Source: an uncultured Holophaga sp. (GTDB lineage: Bacteria > Acidobacteriota > Holophagae > Holophagales > Holophagaceae). Taken from it: a DNA stretch of 64,000 nucleotides. The notes below the pieces were generated by a model that was not told the origin of the DNA, did no database searches, and was given only the letters and a program-made list of their open reading frames with translations. Shown here one piece after another: positions 42,514 through 53,796 of the stretch; positions within the stretch are counted from its first letter, which is position 1, and every line of letters starts with the position of its first letter. The translations under genes and the position numbers were made by a program. The stretch lies in NCBI GenBank assembly GCA_963664825.1, contig OY761614.1, positions 1,824,001-1,888,000 on the forward strand, in the 5' to 3' direction.

Positions 42514-42590
42514 GCGCCCATAGCTCAGGTGGATAGAGCATCAGCCTTCTAAGCTGGTGGTCGCTGGTTCGAGTCCAGCTGGGCGCACCA
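42514..42590 (+). tRNA. tRNA-Arg(TCT)
   Basis: 77-nt cloverleaf, TCAGC-CT-TCT-AA-GCTGG, CCA end. Confidence 0.96.
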
Positions 42591-42726
42591 ATGAAAAAGC
42601 CCTGAAACGTAACGGTTTCGGGGCTTTTTGTTGTGGATTTAACGAGGGCGTTTTTGGGGCCTTGGGTGCCTCGTCATCACACCGTCATCACGCCCCCGAC
42701 CAATGCCGACCAATGCCCCCCGATGG

Positions 42727-42926
42727 CCGGTGCCAGATTCCGGTCATCCGGGTGAGGGGGATGGAAGGGGCCAGCCCTAATGGCTACCCCCCCGATGACC
42801 GCAATCAGATTTCGGTCACACCCCCAAGGGGTGGGGATCCGATCCACCCCCCCAAGGTACCGTCATGACGGTGGCCCCTTGGGTGTGCTCGTCTCGATGA
42901 CGAGTCCAGGGTCGTAATGGCCCCTG
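42727..42926. repeat. Array of ~7 different adjacent palindromes (left arm of satellite)
   Basis: e.g. TGACCGCAATC-A-GATTTCGGTCA, GGGGTGG-9-CCACCCC, ACCGTCATGACGGT, CTCGTC-5-GACGAG. Confidence 0.75.
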
Positions 42927-43933: not shown

Positions 43934-44239
43934 TCATAACGGCCTCACCATCCCCGCCCTTCGTCCCGCCTCAGCCCTGGGAAGGCCTGCCAGGTGCTCC
44001 AGGATCGCGGCGCGTTCTTCTCGGAGGTATCGGGCTTCCTCGGGATCGGCGGCGATGCACAGGGCCTCCAGGGTCAGATCAGTGAGGGAGCCAAGAATGG
44101 GGTCTTTCCAGAGCTTCAGCAGTTCTGCCAGATCGGACGGAAGGGGGCCGTTGCTCCGATATCGGAGACGGCCACCCTCGGCCCAGAGGATTACCCCAAG
44201 GTCCCGGACGTAGCGAACCACCTCCGAGGCGTGGGTCAT
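43934..44239 (-). CDS. Satellite hypothetical protein (TubC_N-like N-terminus, EERAAI motif)
   Basis: LGV.L..EGGRLRY..L...K..IL; ATGA overlap with the primase stop. Confidence 0.65.
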   Translation of the reverse strand: MTHASEVVRYVRDLGVILWAEGGRLRYRSNGPLPSDLAELLKLWKDPILGSLTDLTLEALCIAADPEEARYLREERAAILEHLAGLPRAEAGRRAGMVRPL

Positions 44240-46728
44240 GTGATTTCACCCTCGAAGAGGCATTCCCTCCCAGATCCCCCCCCTGAATCCGCAACTGCCG
44301 CTACTTCCAATAATGGTGCGGGTTTAGGGGTCGCGGATTGGTTGCGTGTCGCCGATTGATCCGCAACTGAGCCCGGATTGGTTGCGCCTGAATCCGCAAC
44401 CGCAACTGTTCCGCAACCGCTAGAACCGCATGAATGCTCATAAGTTGCGGGTTGCGGATCTTTGGGGGGGGTGACGGGGGCAAGGTATCGAGAGAACACA
44501 TCATCGAATTGGGACTTCTGATATCCCTTCCTGGTGACACCGTTAATTTTGAAATCCTTCGAACTGATTTCAAATTCTCCCAACCGCTTGGAAAGTTGGC
44601 GTGGGGATAGTTCCTTGCCAAAGGCGTAGCTTGCCCATGGCTTCGTGTCGTCAGAGGTCAAAGCACTCAGAAGATCGGCAGTCGGAATTCTGTCCACATT
44701 TTTGGCGTCAAAGATTTCCTTGATGTCCGAGAGAAGTTCCGTGGATGTCGAAACGGGGTCGTGCTCGGCTCCCGAGATATGCAGCGCAGCGGCTCGAGCG
44801 AGGTTGGGCCACTCGCCATCGGCGAGGTCTGCAATCGCAAGCAATGGCTCCCAGTTGTCCTGGGCACGGTCGTTCAGCTCCTCGGGGAGGTTGGGGCGGG
44901 CCTGCCCGATGGATGGGCCTGCATCCTCGGCAAACCTCGCCAGCTTGGATGCCAATTGAGAGAATGCTTTTGGGTCTGCATGTCGCAACCGCTGGCATTT
45001 CTCCGCGGGTAGCTTGCGCCGAAGGGTCAGCACAATGGCCCTGTCCATGAGAGTGCCTGCAAGGTGTCCGATGCCACTGATGGCCTTTGCGCCCCAGGTT
45101 GAGAACTGCCGAGGTTCGTGGTCGTCTCCCACTGTTCGGATTACGAAAGCGCTTTGTCGCGTGTGCCCCGAATTGATGACACCTCGCAATTCTTCGTTTT
45201 CCTTCAGGAAGGAATCAGCCTCATCGATTAGCAGAGTAGGGCTGTGGGCCTCAATTACTCGATAGACAGCCGCGGGCGAAATGTTCGAGGCCACCAGAGG
45301 ACGGAAGGACAGGCGACCGATCACGTCCAGCAGTTGAGACTTCCCACACCGCTTTTCAGGTGCGGTGATAACCGCCAAGGGCGCTACCTGAAGGTAGTCG
45401 ATACACCAGGTGAACGCGACCCAGAGGGCGACTGCAATAGACGTGCTTGTGTCGCAAATTATGAAACGGTTTACCGTAGCCCGGATATCGTCTAGCAGGG
45501 TAGCGATGTCCACAGGATCGCCCCAGGGCTCTACCTCTGGGAACATCGCAGCCTTCCCTGCATCCACCTGGTGGTCCTTCTGTGACCCAGCAACGGCTTT
45601 GTCGAGCGCCGTGGCTCTGACGCCCAAGCGCTTCGCTTCGATGACCCGGATCTGTTCGTATTCCATTCTCGGCATTGCAGCAAACCTTGCCACAGCATCG
45701 AGAATTTGCTCGGGTTCCGCATTCGTTGGGGAGGTCTGCGAGCCAGGAGAGGATGCCGCGGTCCTCAACAGGTGCCCCCGGTCCTGGCACTTCGGGGCAG
45801 CGTCTTTCACCTTCTTCCGCAGCTCTTCCAGGCTCCAGGGCGGCTTACACCGTGGGTTATAGCGATCCAGTAGCAGAGACAGGGCCTCGTCTTCTGAGAG
45901 ATCGAAGCCGTCGATCAGCTTCAAAGCATCGTTGAATGTCTTGGTGCCCCCTTCAGCATTTTCGCCTTCCCCGGCGATGGAACCGGGGATGTAATCCAGA
46001 TATCGCCCCGCCCGTTCCAGCACCTCTGCACGGTCCAGGGAGGGGGTGAATCGGATTACATCCCCCTCTGGCTTGCTCTTCTTCGGTGGAATAGGCGGGA
46101 ACGCGGCCCGGATTTCGTCCCGTGTGTAGCGTGGTCCATCGGCTGTCAGCAGCTCTACCGGCTGAGGTTCGGCCTTCCGGTGCATGAAGCCTGGCACCCG
46201 AAGCACCCGTTCCACGGTGCAGGCGGCCTTGTCAGCACCGAAGAGTGCAAGCCCATGCTGAATGGCCTTCAATTCCAATTCGTGCTCACCCCGCCGGGCC
46301 TCATCGGCGCATGGCATGGGGGCTATGGCTAGCCAGTAGAGGTGCCACCCGCCGGGCGTCTTGACCACCATGGAGGGGGCCAGGGGCAACCGTGGAAGGT
46401 CGAAAGTTTCACGGGCGTCCTTCGTATCGAGGTCAGCATGCCATCCCCTGAGGAGCTGGATATTCGCCTTCTTCCGGCCCTGGCCATCGGTTTGATTGAC
46501 GGTCACGAAAACACCCGCGCCGGAATGGTTCAGCCGTTCCAGTTCGGGGGCGGCCTCATCGATAGATTGGGACCAGTGCTTTGCAAGTTCGGGGGCCTTC
46601 CGTGTTTTGTCCTCATCAAAGGTCTGCCAGCGCTCTGGGTTGGTCCAGGCATCGTCTTGGCTGCACTGATTCAGGCAAGCCAGAAAGGGGATAGCAGAGC
46701 CCACGAGGCGCTCTCGGAGGTCGATCAT
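44236..46728 (-). CDS. Primase-helicase (RepB-type AEP primase + DUF3631-type P-loop domain)
   Basis: ADLD, TPGGWHLYW, RVLRVPG; APEKRCGKS, LLIDEAD, RAQDNWEPLLAIAD. Confidence 0.88.
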   Translation of the reverse strand: MIDLRERLVGSAIPFLACLNQCSQDDAWTNPERWQTFDEDKTRKAPELAKHWSQSIDEAAPELERLNHSGAGVFVTVNQTDGQGRKKANIQLLRGWHADLDTKDARETFDLPRLPLAPSMVVKTPGGWHLYWLAIAPMPCADEARRGEHELELKAIQHGLALFGADKAACTVERVLRVPGFMHRKAEPQPVELLTADGPRYTRDEIRAAFPPIPPKKSKPEGDVIRFTPSLDRAEVLERAGRYLDYIPGSIAGEGENAEGGTKTFNDALKLIDGFDLSEDEALSLLLDRYNPRCKPPWSLEELRKKVKDAAPKCQDRGHLLRTAASSPGSQTSPTNAEPEQILDAVARFAAMPRMEYEQIRVIEAKRLGVRATALDKAVAGSQKDHQVDAGKAAMFPEVEPWGDPVDIATLLDDIRATVNRFIICDTSTSIAVALWVAFTWCIDYLQVAPLAVITAPEKRCGKSQLLDVIGRLSFRPLVASNISPAAVYRVIEAHSPTLLIDEADSFLKENEELRGVINSGHTRQSAFVIRTVGDDHEPRQFSTWGAKAISGIGHLAGTLMDRAIVLTLRRKLPAEKCQRLRHADPKAFSQLASKLARFAEDAGPSIGQARPNLPEELNDRAQDNWEPLLAIADLADGEWPNLARAAALHISGAEHDPVSTSTELLSDIKEIFDAKNVDRIPTADLLSALTSDDTKPWASYAFGKELSPRQLSKRLGEFEISSKDFKINGVTRKGYQKSQFDDVFSRYLAPVTPPKDPQPATYEHSCGSSGCGTVAVADSGATNPGSVADQSATRNQSATPKPAPLLEVAAVADSGGGSGRECLFEGEIT
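44289..44457. repeat. Iteron cluster (putative ori) inside the primase 3' end
   Basis: CCGCAAC at 44289, 44361, 44394, 44400 and 44411; inverted GTTGCGG at 44444 and 44451. Confidence 0.7.
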
Positions 46729-47346: not shown

Positions 47347-47577
47347 TCAGGCCCCCTTCTCGGTGCGGCTCTCGCACCATGCCTGAAGGTCCGAGAGACG
47401 GTATCGAACGAGTGACCCGCATTTCACCCAGGCGGGGCCGTTGGTGCGCTTGCACCTCCAATCGATTAGGGTCAGGGGGCTGATGGCCAAAAAGGCGGCG
47501 GCCGCTTTGGTATCCATCAATCCATCAAGCGGGTGGGGTTCCGCGTGGGGTGTGGGATTTAGATCGGGTTGGGCCAT
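47347..47577 (-). CDS. AlpA/excisionase-type HTH protein
   Basis: GGAGG SD; LMDTKAAAAFL.IS..TL.DWR...GP.WVK.G..VRYR.SDL.AW. Confidence 0.85.
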   Translation of the reverse strand: MAQPDLNPTPHAEPHPLDGLMDTKAAAAFLAISPLTLIDWRCKRTNGPAWVKCGSLVRYRLSDLQAWCESRTEKGA

Positions 47578-47713
47578 GTAGCCTCCAGAGAAGGGCCAAG
47601 CGGGCTTGCTTGGGTCCTTCTCTGGAGGATCAGGTCTGTGCTGGGGTATAGAAAAAACGCAGAAAAGCCCCCATGACGGGGGCGTGTTTTCTGCATGAAT
47701 CGAGTTGATGCCC

Positions 47714-48445
47714 TCAGTCTTGGGCCCGCGCTCCGGCCTCTCGGAATTGCCCATCGGAGGGCTTTTCGCCCGTGGCGGCTTCATGGATGAGGCGGGCCAA
47801 ACGCACTCGCTTTGTGGGTTCCCACTCATGGGCCTCCATCCATTTTTTGCATTTCTTAAGAAGCCAATCCTGGGAGGTTTCCCCTAGCAGCACGTCATCA
47901 AGGGTCTTCCGGCCCAATGCCTTCGCCTTCTTTCTCATCCCGGACGCCTTGCGTCCTGCCCATGCAGACAGGGCTTGGGTGCTCTCCTGCCAGAGCCCAG
48001 GGCCTACAAATTCCGTGAAATGTTCCCCTGAGGTCACTGGGTAGCAGTTCACGAATTCCCCCTCATCCATCGGCGGCAACATTTCGCCACCAGCACGCGA
48101 GAACAGGGCCTTGTCCTCCGCGCTGAAGGCTCTATCCAAGACTTTTCGGGCCCCTGGGCTCAGGTGATTGAGGCGATTGTGGAGGGCCGCGGCACAGTCT
48201 CGGAGGACTTCCAGCTCCTCGGCAACGGCAGCGACACGGCCCGCGTTGCGCTCCGACAACATCATGTCGTAATCCCTCACCAGGGATTCCAGCTCCCGGC
48301 GGGCTTTCGCTTGATCACCAGGGACCAAGATCGGCCATGCCTTCACTAGGCCGATAGCTTCGTCAATCAACGCGTCCCGGCGGAGGCCCCACCGTTCTAT
48401 TCGCTCGATGGCTTCTTGCCCAAGTTCAGGCGGTAGCCAAACCAT
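47714..48445 (-). CDS. Hypothetical protein upstream of alpA
   Basis: 243-aa ORF with GGGAGG SD. Confidence 0.65.
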   Translation of the reverse strand: MVWLPPELGQEAIERIERWGLRRDALIDEAIGLVKAWPILVPGDQAKARRELESLVRDYDMMLSERNAGRVAAVAEELEVLRDCAAALHNRLNHLSPGARKVLDRAFSAEDKALFSRAGGEMLPPMDEGEFVNCYPVTSGEHFTEFVGPGLWQESTQALSAWAGRKASGMRKKAKALGRKTLDDVLLGETSQDWLLKKCKKWMEAHEWEPTKRVRLARLIHEAATGEKPSDGQFREAGARAQD

Positions 48446-48486
48446 TCACACCTCCCACCCGGTGCATTCCCGCAAAAGCAAAAGGG

Positions 48487-48537
48487 GCGCGGCGTTCCGG
48501 TGCGGGAACCGGCTTTCGGGAGCTACCCTAGCCGTGC
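48487..48537 (-). ncRNA. Structured RNA motif, probably int-alpA-like
   Basis: GCACGGC-TA-GGG-TAGCT-CCC-GAAAG-CCGGT-TCCCGC-ACCGG-AAC-GCCGCGC three-way junction between int and alpA. Confidence 0.5.
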
Positions 48538-48548
48538 CGATGGACAGT

Positions 48549-48812
48549 CTACCTTTGTGCTTCCGTCACCGTCTGGTGGAAGGCGATTTCGGAGTATTCC
48601 TCAATCTCCCCCGCGAGGCTATCAAGGCACCCCTGGAAGGCCTTGGCCGTTTGACTGGTGAATGGGGCCCCTTGTGCATACGGCTCCAGGAGGTGAGACA
48701 CCCCCTGCACCTTGCGTTGAATATCTGAGAACGATTCCGCCATGCCATCGGCAAAGTCGAAGGGCGGGATAGGCATGGTTTCAGCGGTTGCAGCAGTCGC
48801 AGCGTGGTTCAC
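48549..48812 (-). CDS. Hypothetical protein
   Basis: AAGGAG SD; GTGA overlap with the upstream ORF. Confidence 0.55.
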   Translation of the reverse strand: MNHAATAATAETMPIPPFDFADGMAESFSDIQRKVQGVSHLLEPYAQGAPFTSQTAKAFQGCLDSLAGEIEEYSEIAFHQTVTEAQR

Positions 48813-49195
48813 AGATTCTCCTTCGAGGAAGGGCGCGTGGCCCGGTTGATTTCGTGAGAGACCATCACCAGGGCTTGGCCCCAGGCGCGGCGGAGGGCGC
48901 GAGCGGCGGCGCGGGGGTCCTCCTGGGCCTCCAGGAAATGGGCAGCTTCCTGGGCTATTTCTTGGACCACCGGGGGCAGCTTGGGCAGTGGATCGGGCGG
49001 CACCTGGCCAGCCAAGGCCACACGAATCAGGTCATCCACCACACGCCACACCGGCATCCCGGCGGCCTCAGCATGGGCCTCCAGGATGGAAGCGGCCTCT
49101 GGGCTCAAGTCCAGGCGCATCCTTGCCACCGGGCCACGCTGGGGCCTCCCGCCCCCCTTTCCTTGTCCCACTCCTGGATTCTTGGCCGTCACCAT
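48809..49195 (-). CDS. Ribbon-helix-helix-like DNA-binding protein
   Basis: GAGGT SD; GRP..RMRLDLSPEA..IL..HA...G....VVDDLI. Confidence 0.55.
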   Translation of the reverse strand: MVTAKNPGVGQGKGGGRPQRGPVARMRLDLSPEAASILEAHAEAAGMPVWRVVDDLIRVALAGQVPPDPLPKLPPVVQEIAQEAAHFLEAQEDPRAAARALRRAWGQALVMVSHEINRATRPSSKENL

Positions 49196-49264
49196 GGCTC
49201 ACCTCTGCCCAAGAGGATGCTCTCGCGCGCGCGAGGAATCAAGAACGTTTTTGGGGCCCGAATA

Positions 49265-49292
49265 GCTTTCGATAACGTCCATTATGTAACTC
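49265..49292 (+). other. dif-like XerC/D site
   Basis: GCTTTCGATAA-CGTCCA-TTATGTAACTC, 11-6-11 geometry with ATAA/TTATGT core. Confidence 0.6.
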
Positions 49293-49319
49293 AGAACTGC
49301 TCGTAAGTCTAACCATTTC

Positions 49320-49950
49320 AATGCTGAAATTTCAGCCATGGAATAATCATGTAGTGGGAAGCCTCCGGAGTTTTCGCCCTTTTCGGCGAAAACCTCAAAG
49401 TCCCTGTGCTCAAAAAGTCGGGCACGGGCGAGAGGATGACATTGACTGTCGGGCAGCATCCGACAACAGGTGCTCCCCCGCGCGTGAGGGTGGAAGGGTT
49501 TTCCGGAATATTCCGGGAAACTCCACCGGGGTGCTCCCCCGCGCGTGAGGGTGGAAGGGGGGTTATTCCGATTAACACCCCTGGAGGCTGGGTGCTCCCC
49601 CGCGCGTGAGGGTGGAAGGGGGTCGCGTTTCAAACGCGACCCTTGGCAATGGAGGGTCGGATTCGAAATCCAACCCCCTCCAGTTCGGACTTCTCGATTC
49701 CAAATCGGAAAGTGCGGGCTCTCGGCTACCAATCCTCGAACCGGACTCAGATCATCAGCCACATTCCGGAGGAGTGGAAGGGTAGCATTCGGATTGCCAC
49801 CCTCTGGAAGGGGTGAACATTTTGGACCCCCCTTTGCAGGGAACCTCAGAGATATCTCCGGGATGTGCAACCGTACTCATTTGCTCACCCCCCCCAGCGC
49901 AGGGAGACCAAGCCCGGCGGGGTTCTTTCCAGATTCGGAAAGAACCTCGA
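49320..49950. repeat. Array of ~13 different adjacent palindromes (right arm of satellite)
   Basis: e.g. GCTGAAATTTCAGC; GTTTTCGCC-6-GGCGAAAAC; GGGTCGCGTTT-C-AAACGCGACCC; GGTTCTTTCC-6-GGAAAGAACC. Confidence 0.85.
49470..49620 (+). CRISPR. Cas-less mini CRISPR-like array, type I-E geometry (3 repeats, 2 spacers)
   Basis: GTGCTCCCCCGCGCGTGAGGGTGGAAGGG (29 bp) identical at 49470, 49531 and 49592; unrelated 32-bp spacers; period 61. Confidence 0.6.
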
Positions 49951-50109
49951 GGCCTCCAGGAAAGGGACAGTTGGGACATCTCTTCCAGTTCTCAAGAAAA
50001 GACTGTCCCACGGCAAACCCTTGCCACCACTATCTAAGGGACTAAAGGGACTAAAGGGACAAGAAAGAGATATACCCCCCCTAAGTTTCCCTTCAACCGG
50101 GGCGAGACT

Positions 50110-51450
50110 TCAGGCCCCGGCCTTCTTTCTGGCCTTAGCCTGGGCCTTCCGGCGGGCCTCCAGTTCCTTCTCTGGATCGATCTTGCCGGTCAGGATGCCT
50201 TCGATCCGGGCCCCGATCTTCTCCGCTGCATCGTGGAGGGGTTCCGCGGCGGTCCTGGTGTAAATGTCAGTCACCGATGCTTCCGCATGGCCTAGCAGCT
50301 CCCCCACGAAGCCCTTGAGGCCCAGGTCAGCTCCCACACTGGCGAAGGTGCGCCGGAGATCATGCCAGCCGGGATCTTCTTCTGTAGGTTCACCCTGGGT
50401 TGCCAGCTTTGCGGCCTCCCGGATGCGCTCCCATGGCCCCTGGAGGCCTATGATTGGCTTCCATCCGATTATCTTTCCCTCCTTCCCCTTCTTGTCTTTG
50501 AGTGGGAGGCCGGGCACCACGTAAGGGCATCCAAGGGTAGGTGTGAGGGCCCGGATGTGAGCCAGGAGGGCATTGCATAGATGCACCACTCGAGTCTTGC
50601 CGGTCTTCTTGCCCGTCTTGTGGAAGGCGGGCGGGATGTGGATTTCCCCGGCGTCCAGGTCGATCCACTCCCAGCGCAGGGCCTGAATTTCACCCTTCCT
50701 CATGCCAGCCAGGAGGGCCAGCCGCACGGCAAGGATGTACTTCGGCGCTTCCTCCGAGGCCTTCAGGGTGAGGCCCAGGGCCTTCAGCTCCATATCTGTG
50801 AGGCGTATGGTTCGCTTCATTTCCGGGGCGCGTTTCTTCACCACGGAAACGGGATTGGAGCCCGTAGGCCTCAGCCCCCATTCTTCAGCCCGGTCCAGCA
50901 TCGTGTGGAATACTGCCCTCACGATGTTGGCAATCCTGGGGGTTTTTCTCAGCTTGAAGAGTAAGGCCGATACCTCAGGCGGTCCCACCAGGGCCAGGGG
51001 CATCTTCCCCAGCGTGGGGAGAAGGTCTTTCTTGATCAGCCGGGTAGACTCCTTCGCCCATTTTGGGGAAAGGGTTGGCGTGTGTTCAATGAAGTAGCGG
51101 TCCGCCAGGTCTGAGACGGTGAACGTGCCCCGCTTGGCCGCAGCAGCCGCGGCGCGGGCGTCTGCCTTGGCTTGGCCTGGATCGGTCCCGGCGTTGATGA
51201 GCGTCCAAATGGGGCTATGGGCTATACCGGCCGCGTCCGGGGTCATGGCGGGGAAGGTCCCCATGGTGTGGATCTTCTGCCTTCCATTGAATCGGTAGCG
51301 CAGCACGAAAGATTTCGCACCGGCCTTGGTCACCTGGAGGCAGAGCCCCTTGTATCCCGTCACTGGATAGAAGCGCGTCCCGGCAGGGTCAGCCACCAGG
51401 GCGTTCACATCCGTCTTGGTCAATCGGATGGCCTTCTCGCTGCTCCTCAT
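50110..51450 (-). CDS. int: Tyrosine integrase with arm-binding domain (P4-like)
   Basis: GL.L.V...G.KS arm domain; GMRKGEI, HDLRRT, LLGH, TDIY; adjacent to attR. Confidence 0.95.
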   Translation of the reverse strand: MRSSEKAIRLTKTDVNALVADPAGTRFYPVTGYKGLCLQVTKAGAKSFVLRYRFNGRQKIHTMGTFPAMTPDAAGIAHSPIWTLINAGTDPGQAKADARAAAAAAKRGTFTVSDLADRYFIEHTPTLSPKWAKESTRLIKKDLLPTLGKMPLALVGPPEVSALLFKLRKTPRIANIVRAVFHTMLDRAEEWGLRPTGSNPVSVVKKRAPEMKRTIRLTDMELKALGLTLKASEEAPKYILAVRLALLAGMRKGEIQALRWEWIDLDAGEIHIPPAFHKTGKKTGKTRVVHLCNALLAHIRALTPTLGCPYVVPGLPLKDKKGKEGKIIGWKPIIGLQGPWERIREAAKLATQGEPTEEDPGWHDLRRTFASVGADLGLKGFVGELLGHAEASVTDIYTRTAAEPLHDAAEKIGARIEGILTGKIDPEKELEARRKAQAKARKKAGA

Positions 51451-51684
51451 GGGCCCCTCGAAAATGTGATGACAGGCGTTCCGTCATCACACCATCATCA
51501 CACTTTCGGCCAATGCGCACCAATTAGTTCATGTATGGATCAACCTCATCCATGGCTAAGTTGCTTTGTTTCCAATACAGCCCAATTTGTGCCCATGCGC
51601 TACAAATGGCCTATACCAGACTTCTAAGCTGGTGGTCGCTGGTTCGAGTCCAGCTGGGCGCACCAATATTTTTGAGGCCTCGGT

Positions 51685-52295: not shown

Positions 52296-52757
52296 ATGCC
52301 AAGTCACACACTCCCATGGATCACCGGGGGATCCCATTGTGAGATCCACTGGCTCTTTGAGGACAACAAATGGGACCCCAAGCCCTACTTTGACGAACAC
52401 CAGTATCCAGGCGCTCAGGTTCGCCTGGAACGCATCGTCAGGCTTTTTGCAGCTTCCGGTCGTCTTCCACGTGACAAAGGACATTGGCGAACAGGTCCAG
52501 CCCCGCAGAACAAACTCTACGAGTTCAAGGACATCTCCAGTGGTCTTCGGCTTCTGGCTTTTAGCTTCACTCAACTTTCTGGCGTCTGCTGGTTCATCGT
52601 GGCGCTTGGGGCAACAAAAGACAGGGGAGACATCACACCTGAAGCTGCGGATCGGGCGATACAAAGACGTCAACGATTCCTTGATGCCAATCATCCTAAG
52701 GGTTTGCCCGAGTCACGATTGCAACCGACCGGCACACAGCCCAGAAAGAGGCGATGA
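52296..52757 (+). CDS. RelE/HigB (Gp49-like) toxin of a TAC system
   Basis: LYEFK...LRLLAF....IV..G..K pattern; first gene of the triad. Confidence 0.65.
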   Translation: MPSHTLPWITGGSHCEIHWLFEDNKWDPKPYFDEHQYPGAQVRLERIVRLFAASGRLPRDKGHWRTGPAPQNKLYEFKDISSGLRLLAFSFTQLSGVCWFIVALGATKDRGDITPEAADRAIQRRQRFLDANHPKGLPESRLQPTGTQPRKRR

Positions 52758-52758
52758 G

Positions 52759-53220
52759 ATGACTAAGTCCATGAAAATCCATGACAGTGCCATCGACAGG
52801 TTTGAGCAGGCCATCCACGAAGAACAGGACCGGCTTTCCCAAGATTTCTTCCAATCGCTCCAGACTCGAATGGAAGAGCTGAACATGTCCCAGTCCGACA
52901 TGGCTTTCACCCTTGGCAAGAGCCGAGCCTATGTGTCCAAGCTCTTTTCCAAAGGCCAGAACCTGACCATCAAGACGATGGTTGAACTCGCCCAATCCTT
53001 GGACATGAAGGTGGCGATCTCTACCAGGGCCATTTGGCTCGAAGCTATGTCGGTCGCAAAAACGACGCCCTTGCAGTGCAAGGGCTGGACTCCGAATCGA
53101 ACCCTCTCATTGGCGCCCACCCAAGTCAGAAGAACAGGGGCCAAGGGCGACTCCACAAAAGTGTCTTGGGGCGATCACACACAGCAAGCCAAGTCCCCTC
53201 TGCTTCAACAAACAAGCTAG
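52759..53220 (+). CDS. XRE-HTH antitoxin (HigA-like) with C-terminal extension
   Basis: MEELNMSQSDMAFTLGKSRAYVSKLF...NLTIKTMVELAQSL plus a ~55-aa low-structure tail. Confidence 0.8.
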   Translation: MTKSMKIHDSAIDRFEQAIHEEQDRLSQDFFQSLQTRMEELNMSQSDMAFTLGKSRAYVSKLFSKGQNLTIKTMVELAQSLDMKVAISTRAIWLEAMSVAKTTPLQCKGWTPNRTLSLAPTQVRRTGAKGDSTKVSWGDHTQQAKSPLLQQTS

Positions 53221-53796
53221 GTGAGAACCATGTTCAAGCTCAACTTCCCTGATACCTCTGCCAAGGAATTCAATCTCGCTGCTACCGTCGCCAAGGTTGT
53301 GGAGTTGACCGATCTAAAAATGGTCGACGGAGAATTCGGCCCCACCCCTCAGGTAGAGAAGAAGGCGAAATCGAAGTCCAAGGATGTGCCCTATGAATTT
53401 GGTTTCAGGTCTCGATTTGATGAAAAAGAAAACCGCCTTGAGGCAATGATCACCATTGAAGGCAGAGACATCCGCAACGCCACCGGTGAGGGCGCTGGCG
53501 GAACCGGCTTGCGGGTTAAGGCAACGTTCCTGTTGACCTACCAAGTGATGGTCGAGCCTCCACCTAAAGATGTCAGAGAAGCCTTTTTCACAGCCTTTGC
53601 TCAAGTCAATGGCCTCATGAATATTTGGCCTTACTACCGGGAGTTCGCTCACGAAGCGGCACGTCGCTTGGGTGTCCCTAACGTAATCGTTCCCCTCCTC
53701 CGCGTGGAGCCCAAACCTGAGCCTAAGGCTCCCCGTGGCCCTGTGAAAGAGAGGAACCCTAAGGCTCTGAGCACCAAGCGGGTTTCCAAAGGTTAA
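53221..53796 (+). CDS. SecB-like chaperone
   Basis: Beta-rich body ending in N....IWPYYREF....RRLG.P...PLL (SecB helix signature); ATG at 53230 is an alternative start. Confidence 0.7.
   Translation: MRTMFKLNFPDTSAKEFNLAATVAKVVELTDLKMVDGEFGPTPQVEKKAKSKSKDVPYEFGFRSRFDEKENRLEAMITIEGRDIRNATGEGAGGTGLRVKATFLLTYQVMVEPPPKDVREAFFTAFAQVNGLMNIWPYYREFAHEAARRLGVPNVIVPLLRVEPKPEPKAPRGPVKERNPKALSTKRVSKG

What the first reader, a model, noticed from the sequence alone, without database searches (positions are those of the whole stretch)
49320..49950. Satellite carries a 630-bp library of back-to-back, all-different palindromes resembling phage antirepressor gene segments
Seen: between the dif-like site and the int stop, almost all the DNA is consecutive 14-30 bp inverted repeats, each with a different core. 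They include GCTGAAATTTCAGC (49323), GTTTTCGCC-6-GGCGAAAAC (49370), GTGCTC-8-GGGCAC (49406), TGTCGG-7-CCGACA (49447), TTTTCCGGAA-TA-TTCCGGGAAA (49499), GGGGGGTTA..TTAACACCCC (49557), GGGTCGCGTTT-C-AAACGCGACCC (49620), GTCGGATT-3-AATCCAAC (49656), CGATT-3-AATCG (49693), GGGTAGCA-7-TGCCACCC (49780), AAGGGG..CCCCTT (49808), GAGATATCTC (49849) and GGTTCTTTCC-6-GGAAAGAACC (49921). Many sit in a TGGAAGGG...CCC(T) frame, and none has a terminator U-tract. Recalled knowledge: on the minus strand one block reads FEHRDFEVFAEKGENSGGFPLHDY, like the variable segment of AntA/AntB antirepressors. Others read AEISA (Rha-like) and GSRLKRDPL / GGSKMFTP (BRO-N-like); those segments are often palindromic in DNA. 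Inference: this is an accumulated collection of binding sites for diverse phage DNA-binding proteins. It could act as a decoy sponge, a multi-helper sensor or a donor-cassette library. I know of no described system of this form.
Basis: partly seen in the sequence, partly recalled or inferred. Interest (0 to 1): 0.88.

Follow-up and report, generated by a model that had tools for sequence, protein, structure and literature searches.

The report
Satellite's collection of phage antirepressor palindromes
A small parasite of bacterial viruses carries a non-coding patchwork of short palindromes taken from inside the antirepressor genes of many different phages, partly strung between CRISPR-like repeats, most likely as DNA landing pads or decoys for those phage proteins.

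Summary
The palindromes are real (7 strong ones against 0.9 in shuffles) but cover a third to a half of the 630 bp, not almost all. They lie in the cargo slot of a 9.1-kb tRNA-Arg satellite. Several units are pieces of phage Rha, Bro-N and AntA genes, some with coding flanks: 11 of 41 such genes from relatives match the array, none match shuffles. In those genes the palindrome is a DNA-level feature (33 of 42 beat synonymous recoding; mismatches show no G-U bias) that codes a variable beta-strand. Similar collections occur in Actinobacteria, with and without repeats, and environmental variants lose or reorder units. Best reading: a library of double-stranded binding sites that titrates or recruits antirepressor-family proteins of diverse helper phages (0.6); binding itself is untested. 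Main rival: guides for host Cascade (0.2). The scan noted a similar array before in an E. coli satellite; ten literature searches found no description.

The parts
42514..42590 (+). tRNA-Arg(TCT), attL; 47-bp att core 42546-42592
42822..42853 (.). second small palindrome at the attL end, Bro-N-like
   Evidence: scores 30-32 to L088/L089
44236..46734 (-). primase/helicase-type replication gene (RepB_primase + DUF3631)
47347..47829 (-). ORF with HTH_17 (AlpA/excisionase-like; label recalled)
   Evidence: E 9e-5, below cut-off
48809..49195 (-). 128-aa ORF conserved next to the dif-like site in related satellites; no Pfam family
49267..49294 (.). dif-like site, second copy besides the chromosomal one
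49323..49336 (.). perfect 14-bp palindrome, source unassigned
49361..49431 (-). AntA gene fragment (FEHRDFEVFAEKGENSGG) with palindrome 49370-49393
   Evidence: scores 38-52 to L111-L114, L117; arm pattern in AntA frame in 21 of 24 viral hits
49447..49465 (.). 6-bp-arm palindrome, source unassigned
49470..49498 (+). repeat 1 (29 nt, type I-E-like geometry, imperfect stem)
49499..49530 (+). 32-nt spacer 1, palindrome with 10 pairs; AntA-like reading by eye, no database match
49531..49559 (+). repeat 2
49560..49591 (+). 32-nt spacer 2, Bro-N palindrome (GVIPINTPGG)
   Evidence: scores 41 and 37 to L088, L089
49592..49620 (+). repeat 3
49621..49652 (+). 32-nt unit 3, Rha palindrome (GVAFQTRP)
   Evidence: 28/28 to Gordonia phage Apricot gp58; Rha frame in 13 of 18 viral and 10 of 25 genome hits
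49654..49676 (+). Rha palindrome (VGFEIQP)
   Evidence: 20/21 to L074; weak hit to Gordonia phage Malisha antirepressor
49682..49712 (+). weak palindrome 49695-49707; reads FGLLDSKSES, Rha-like by eye only
49712..49805 (+). Bro-N gene fragment (ALGYQ...SHIPEEWKGSIRIATL) with palindrome 49779-49803
   Evidence: score 34 over 47 nt to L089/L091; degenerate pattern in Bro-N in 2 of 2 viral hits; part upstream of 49759 by eye
49808..49834 (.). imperfect palindrome, weakly Bro-N-like
   Evidence: score 21 to L082
49847..49887 (.). two weak palindromes, unassigned
49918..49949 (-). 13-pair palindrome, AntA-like (EVLSESGKN)
   Evidence: score 30 to L116; near-copy beside an integrase in G036
49955..50065 (.). 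six short GGGAC(A/T)-type repeats; possibly an origin fragment of another replicon (inference)
   Evidence: no convincing source found
50110..51450 (-). tyrosine integrase
51621..51667 (+). attR, 47-bp copy of the tRNA 3' end

Best explanation
The array is a library of double-stranded DNA sites captured from phage antirepressor-family genes. Step 1 (shown): Rha, Bro-N and AntA genes each carry one dyad at a fixed place inside the DNA-binding domain; its core varies between phages while symmetry is kept. Step 2 (inferred; recalled precedent HK022 Roi): the protein binds that dyad in its own gene, each variant preferring its own site. Step 3 (shown as outcome, inferred as process): the satellite has picked up about ten such pieces by short recombination events and, for three units, probably through a type I-E mini-array whose repeats have since drifted. 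Step 4 (inferred): when a helper or rival phage expresses its Rha/Bro-N/AntA protein, the excised, replicating satellite presents many copies of the matching site and titrates the protein away from the phage genome, or recruits it with its C-terminal antirepressor domain to the satellite. Many variants give cover against many phages.
For: Array matched by 11 of 41 Pfam-picked genes at score >=30, shuffles 0; at score >=37 by 9 genes of 3 families, next best of 4,963 genome tiles 3 genes of 1 family. Coding flanks outside the palindromes show capture. In 33 of 42 domains the best dyad beats whole-domain synonymous recoding. 42 internal mismatches split 6 G-T, 8 A-C, 28 other, as expected without RNA pairing; 22 of 42 pair right up to a 1-nt centre. 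Fragments lie in both orientations. Most units lie outside the repeats. A repeat-free array in Cryobacterium lactosi is matched by 10 of 41 library genes; in Gordonia aichiensis a Rha fragment interrupts a repeat. Palindromic spacers keep the whole dyad, whereas 0 of 108 host spacers exceed 7 pairs. In both models the dyad codes a beta-strand of a hairpin. The element encodes no such protein itself.
Against: No binding was tested, and the Roi precedent is recalled and repeated by an earlier AI note, not read. In 9 of 9 phage records with the in-gene Rha site there is no second copy within 3 mismatches, so it is not a multi-copy operator. Three phages with a copy outside genes encode a Rha whose own dyad differs. 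One solitary copy is followed by a T-run and may be a terminator (L143). Fold matches are weak (best Z 5.3; no Foldseek hit with E<=0.001). About five units stay unassigned. Most related satellites lack an array: of the 8 other loci with the dif-like site shown, only G108 and G005 have short sets, and G108's does not reach the library threshold. Exact 61-nt spacing and a complete host I-E system fit an RNA role.
Confidence: 0.6

Rival explanations
1. The repeat-flanked part is a CRISPR mini-array: host Cas6e cuts the transcript and host Cascade uses the spacers to cut or silence antirepressor genes of competing phages; the dyads are favoured because they are shared by many phages and hard to mutate.
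For: 29+32-nt geometry equals the host's (108 of 108 spacers at period 61); host Cas7 present; repeat resembles the L157 repeat (p=0.0005 vs shuffles); L157 has six well-formed repeats with 3 of 5 spacers of >=11 pairs; in the 13 viral Rha genes the three bases before unit 3 read AAG or AGG (PAM identity recalled); a second satellite in this genome has a spacer with a 32/32 target. Diverged repeats can be processed (10.1101/2024.10.29.618823, passages).
Against: Covers 3 of about 13 units; similarity to the host repeat is modest (p=0.03) whereas published viral mini-arrays have repeats identical to the host's (PMC11656645, passage); the repeat folds no better than shuffles (z -0.34) and spacers fold on themselves; no promoter found; L157 periods vary 60-62; Cas7 not found in G147, G148, G149, G108, G005 (the control rang in only 1 of 14 genomes, so sensitivity is limited); repeat-free arrays exist.
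Confidence: 0.2
2. Neutral debris: cruciform-prone dyads are break and recombination hot spots of phage DNA, so the satellite's cargo slot traps them without benefit.
For: Units are lost and reordered freely; most relatives lack them; palindromes can be duplicated inside AntA genes (L188).
Against: The same narrow class is collected in unrelated elements of two phyla; host spacer acquisition shows no such bias (0 of 108); units keep dyad symmetry.
Confidence: 0.1
3. Donor library: the units are templates that recombine into antirepressor genes and switch their DNA specificity.
For: Variable cores within conserved arms and coding flanks give microhomology.
Against: No recipient gene in the element; the genome has one weak Bro-N hit and no Rha or AntA hit; no recombinase besides the integrase, no reverse transcriptase found among the 19 ORFs scanned.
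Confidence: 0.06
4. A structured non-coding RNA or a set of terminators.
For: Strong hairpins are predicted.
Against: No G-U bias, 0-1-nt loops; 0 terminators; no Rfam match in the array.
Confidence: 0.04

Closest known systems
CRISPR mini-arrays of mobile elements (PMC11656645, passages; 10.1101/2023.03.03.530964, passages)
   Same: Short array on a mobile element, no cas genes, host has a type I-E system, spacers come from phage DNA.
   Different: Repeats differ from the host's; spacers are whole dyads of antirepressor genes; most units lie outside repeats; repeat-free versions exist. Term searches of both main texts found 0 'antirepressor' and 0 'satellite'; supplements not seen.
Cracr / crlRNA regulatory arrays of phages (10.1101/2024.10.29.618823, passages)
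   Same: Diverged type I-E repeats in 2-3-spacer arrays on mobile elements.
   Different: Their targets are cas or toxin promoters; here the spacers match phage coding dyads. No long match of these spacers to the host genome outside the array was listed.
HK022 Roi binding inside its own gene next to an IHF site (Clerget and Boccard; recalled and named in note e1-1903826; paper not seen)
   Same: Antirepressor-family protein with an intragenic site.
   Different: One site in one gene; no array, no satellite; no IHF consensus within 1 mismatch in 49101-50150.
pSK1 Par DNA-binding domain on centromere DNA (PDB 8csh) and Mbp1 APSES domain
   Same: Best, weak fold neighbours of the Rha model (Z 5.3 and 4.0); suggests a winged-helix reading DNA.
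   Different: Z below the level that shows kinship; no function follows.
PICI-like phage satellites
   Same: tRNA att site, integrase, HTH, primase-helicase, about 9 kb, variable cargo slot.
   Different: Cargo is a non-coding site library rather than genes; no terminase or capsid gene among the ORFs scanned.

Membership tests
Type I-E CRISPR mini-array | 29-nt repeats at 61-nt period with 32-nt unique spacers | tested here: met
   three exact copies, two intervals of 61
Type I-E CRISPR mini-array | repeat identical or near-identical to the host array repeat | tested here: not met
   16 identical columns of 30, p=0.03 vs shuffles; closer to the L157 repeat
Type I-E CRISPR mini-array | stable repeat hairpin for Cas6e | tested here: inconclusive
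   -10 kcal/mol, z -0.34; competes with spacer hairpins
Type I-E CRISPR mini-array | cognate Cascade in the host | tested here: met
   Cas7 E 2e-123 beside a 109-repeat array
Type I-E CRISPR mini-array | full-length protospacer with PAM in a phage | tested here: inconclusive
   26 of 32 nt of unit 3 match a Rha gene; no 32/32 match found for any of the three
Type I-E CRISPR mini-array | transcribed and processed to crRNA | not testable with these tools
   no RNA run available
Fragments of Rha / Bro-N / AntA genes | units match the dyad segment of Pfam-verified genes above chance | tested here: met
Protein-binding dsDNA dyads | symmetry selected at DNA level, without G-U bias | tested here: met
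   (on source genes; relatives are not independent)
Protein-binding dsDNA dyads | bound by the cognate protein | not testable with these tools
   needs a binding assay
Single decayed gene | colinear match to one gene | tested here: not met
   three families, two orientations; no Pfam hit for the four overlapping ORFs scanned
Roi/IHF module | IHF consensus beside the dyad | tested here: not met
   none within 1 mismatch (consensus recalled)
PICI-like satellite | att duplication, integrase, primase, no structural genes | tested here: met
PICI-like satellite | induced and packaged by a helper phage | not testable with these tools
   no experiment possible

The most novel reading that the evidence does not exclude
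Phage Rha, Bro-N and AntA proteins recognise a DNA dyad that also encodes their own recognition strand, so one mutation event changes site and reader together; satellites across phyla collect these sites, partly by co-opting CRISPR spacer acquisition as a DNA collector, into libraries that act as DNA (not RNA) memory to sponge or recruit helper-phage regulators.
Probability: 0.35. Interest if true: 0.95.

Novelty: categorically new. Interest (0 to 1): 0.83.

Why it matters
It would be a non-coding, protein-free interference or sensing device of phage satellites, and a CRISPR-like memory read as DNA. It also exposes an apparently undescribed rule of very common phage gene families of poorly known function: a selected dyad inside the coding sequence of the DNA-binding domain. 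The array supplies a ready panel of variant sites with which the specificity and role of Rha, Bro-N and AntA proteins can be tested directly.

Tried and rejected
Exact repeat pattern in GTDB genomes, IMG/VR and JGI metagenomes: 0 hits each. Patterns for the 49921 and 49499 units in IMG/VR: 0. A canonical-type repeat pattern gave 0, but it did not match the window's own repeat either, so it says little. Repeat-tail plus Rha-arm pattern in IMG/VR: 0; flank plus Rha-core pattern in 301 genomes of the phylum: only G000. The 128-aa protein in metagenomes: no confirmed relative. Sub-region BLASTn against phages gave only weak hits; plasmid BLASTn gave one AntA hit and many weak unannotated hits, not followed. 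PDB sequence searches with both alignments: 0; Foldseek for Bro-N: no hit with E<=0.001; the wide structural search was run for the Rha model only. No RNA holder listed. Host spacers against genome and loci: only short matches. The idea that the second satellite's spacer hits a prophage was dropped: the target is a host peroxiredoxin operon (gene names by my reading of the ORFs). Origin of the 49955-50065 tail: not found. Ten literature searches gave no description of such arrays or of the intragenic dyads; most subscription papers are outside the library. Protein-complex prediction was not used (the question is protein-DNA).

Full report
Setting. The region lies in a 9.1-kb element bounded by tRNA-Arg(TCT) and a 47-bp copy of its 3' end, with a tyrosine integrase, an HTH gene and a primase/DUF3631 gene; no structural gene was found among the 19 ORFs scanned. 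The array fills the slot between a dif-like site and the integrase stop. In relatives this slot varies: ORFs, nothing, or a few palindromes (G108, G005).

Observation. The listed motifs are present and strong inverted repeats exceed shuffles (7 vs 0.9, 0 of 300), but they cover only 32-47% of the stretch, and raw counts are equalled by a few GC-rich coding tiles. What singles the region out is the source of the units.

Source of the units. BLASTn against annotated phages gave 21 records, 14 of them annotated as antirepressor or Rha under the match (many are near-identical phages). The 23-nt unit at 49620 occurs exactly in 18 viral and 25 genome stretches; it lies in a Pfam Rha frame in 13 of 18 and 10 of 25 (the two collections overlap). 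The arms of the 49370 unit lie in an AntA frame in 21 of 24 viral hits; a degenerate form of the 49780 unit lies in Bro-N in 2 of 2. For an unbiased test I took genes found by Pfam profile in 133 relatives (45 loci, only 30 of 60 Bro-N matches returned as loci; dropped L076, L079 as partial or weak and L087, L103 as duplicates). Of these 41, 11 match the array at score >=30, none in 20 shuffles; at score >=37 the array tile has 9 genes of 3 families, the next of 4,963 tiles 3 genes of 1 family. Two fragments carry coding flanks beyond the dyad, AntA on the minus strand and Bro-N on the plus strand, which shows capture from genes. About five units remain unassigned.

The dyad in the genes. In 42 domains (39 of the above after also dropping the partial L075 and L117, plus three Rha genes) the best inverted repeat sits at the same relative place and beats 40 synonymous recodings of the whole domain in 33 cases. 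Its 42 internal mismatches show no G-U bias on either strand and 22 pair up to a single central base, which favours a double-stranded dyad over an RNA hairpin. The genes are related, so these counts overstate independence; the labels ORF6N and DinD-like for some are recalled. In AlphaFold models the dyad codes strand 42-49 of a hairpin in Bro-N and strand 35-39 in Rha; fold neighbours are weak winged-helix proteins. Nine of 9 phage records with the in-gene Rha site have no second copy. Of 5 viral records with a copy outside Rha, 3 encode a Rha with a different dyad, one only two bases different and about 350 bp away.

CRISPR-like repeats. Three exact repeats at period 61 frame three units. The host has a type I-E operon with 109 repeats at the same period. 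The satellite repeat is only modestly like the host's (p=0.03) and more like the repeat of locus L157 (p=0.0005). L157, from an actinomycete MAG beside a resolvase-like gene (my reading), has six repeats and spacers with 12, 12, 5, 11 and 7 pairs, two matching Rha genes. A Gordonia aichiensis contig has four repeats with palindromic spacers and a Rha fragment inserted into one repeat. Cryobacterium lactosi has 11 strong dyads in 810 bp with no repeats seen, matched by 10 of 41 library genes. None of 108 host spacers exceeds 7 pairs. These cases were found through one unit, so their frequency is unknown.

Dynamics. In peat metagenome contigs, X6 lacks two repeat-spacer units and begins a further repeat after 49720; X7 places the 49557 unit after 49720 and has a changed core at 49662-49673 (4 of 16 listed runs laid). 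These are single contigs at depth about 2 and may hold errors.

Mechanism. Shown: capture of dyads from three gene families, DNA-level selection on those dyads, recurrence in unrelated elements, unit turnover. Inferred: binding by the cognate proteins (recalled precedent HK022 Roi, also named in note e1-1903826, paper not seen) and benefit to the satellite. Many source proteins carry a C-terminal ANT domain, so binding could either drain them from the phage or bring them to the satellite; the lack of a promoter in the array leans to draining. I put the DNA-site library at 0.6, Cascade guides at 0.2, debris at 0.1, donor cassettes at 0.06. The first two can coexist.

Literature. Seen as passages only: PMC11656645, 10.1101/2023.03.03.530964, 10.1101/2024.10.29.618823; none mentions antirepressors or satellites in the main text; their supplementary tables of mini-arrays were not seen and may list such arrays. 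Other papers were seen only as search listings. Ten searches found no description of these arrays. The scan itself noted a comparable array in an E. coli satellite; that is a lead, not support, and its IHF component is not found here.

Verdict. Real, not an artefact; origin established, function open. Not a standard CRISPR mini-array by the repeat-identity test, though it may have been built like one. Interest 0.83.

Noticed in passing
G000:C1:2797584-2797888 (L137): A second integrated element carries five repeats at 61-nt period (three well formed, two degenerate); spacers 3 and 4 are palindromes of 11 and 9 pairs, with more palindromes upstream. They do not reach the library threshold.
   Followed up: partly
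G000:C1:2797674-2797705 and 1700705-1700736: Spacer 2 of that mini-array matches the host chromosome 32/32 at the junction of two peroxiredoxin-type genes, preceded by AGG; spacer 1 has a 17-nt match at 1694881. A self-targeting mini-array in a host with a full I-E system.
   Followed up: partly
window 49291-49559: In run X4 this part of the array lies on contigs of depth about 210 against 13-18 for the flanks; perhaps another high-copy element shares it. Unexplained.
   Followed up: no
window 48469-48538 (-): Weak Rfam int-alpA match, 28.9 bits, below the 35.8 threshold.
   Followed up: no
L188:601-750; L173:600-965: AntA genes or their neighbourhood hold tandem variant copies of the dyad.
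   Followed up: no
L144, L146, L151, L163, L055: Solitary perfect copies of the Rha dyad lie between genes that look like phage structural genes by my reading.
   Followed up: partly
window 44236-44480: The 3' end of the primase gene holds nine short inverted/direct hexamer copies, probably the element's origin.
   Followed up: no
G000:C1:2515000-2530000 (L136): A third dif-like site lies in another element that shares genes with the second satellite.
   Followed up: no
L138:4628-7324: The closest relative of this satellite (G108, integrase 79% identical) carries a tape-measure-like gene in the cargo slot.
   Followed up: no
window 52296-53796: Small three-gene cluster outside attR with an HTH_3 protein, lower GC.
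   Followed up: no
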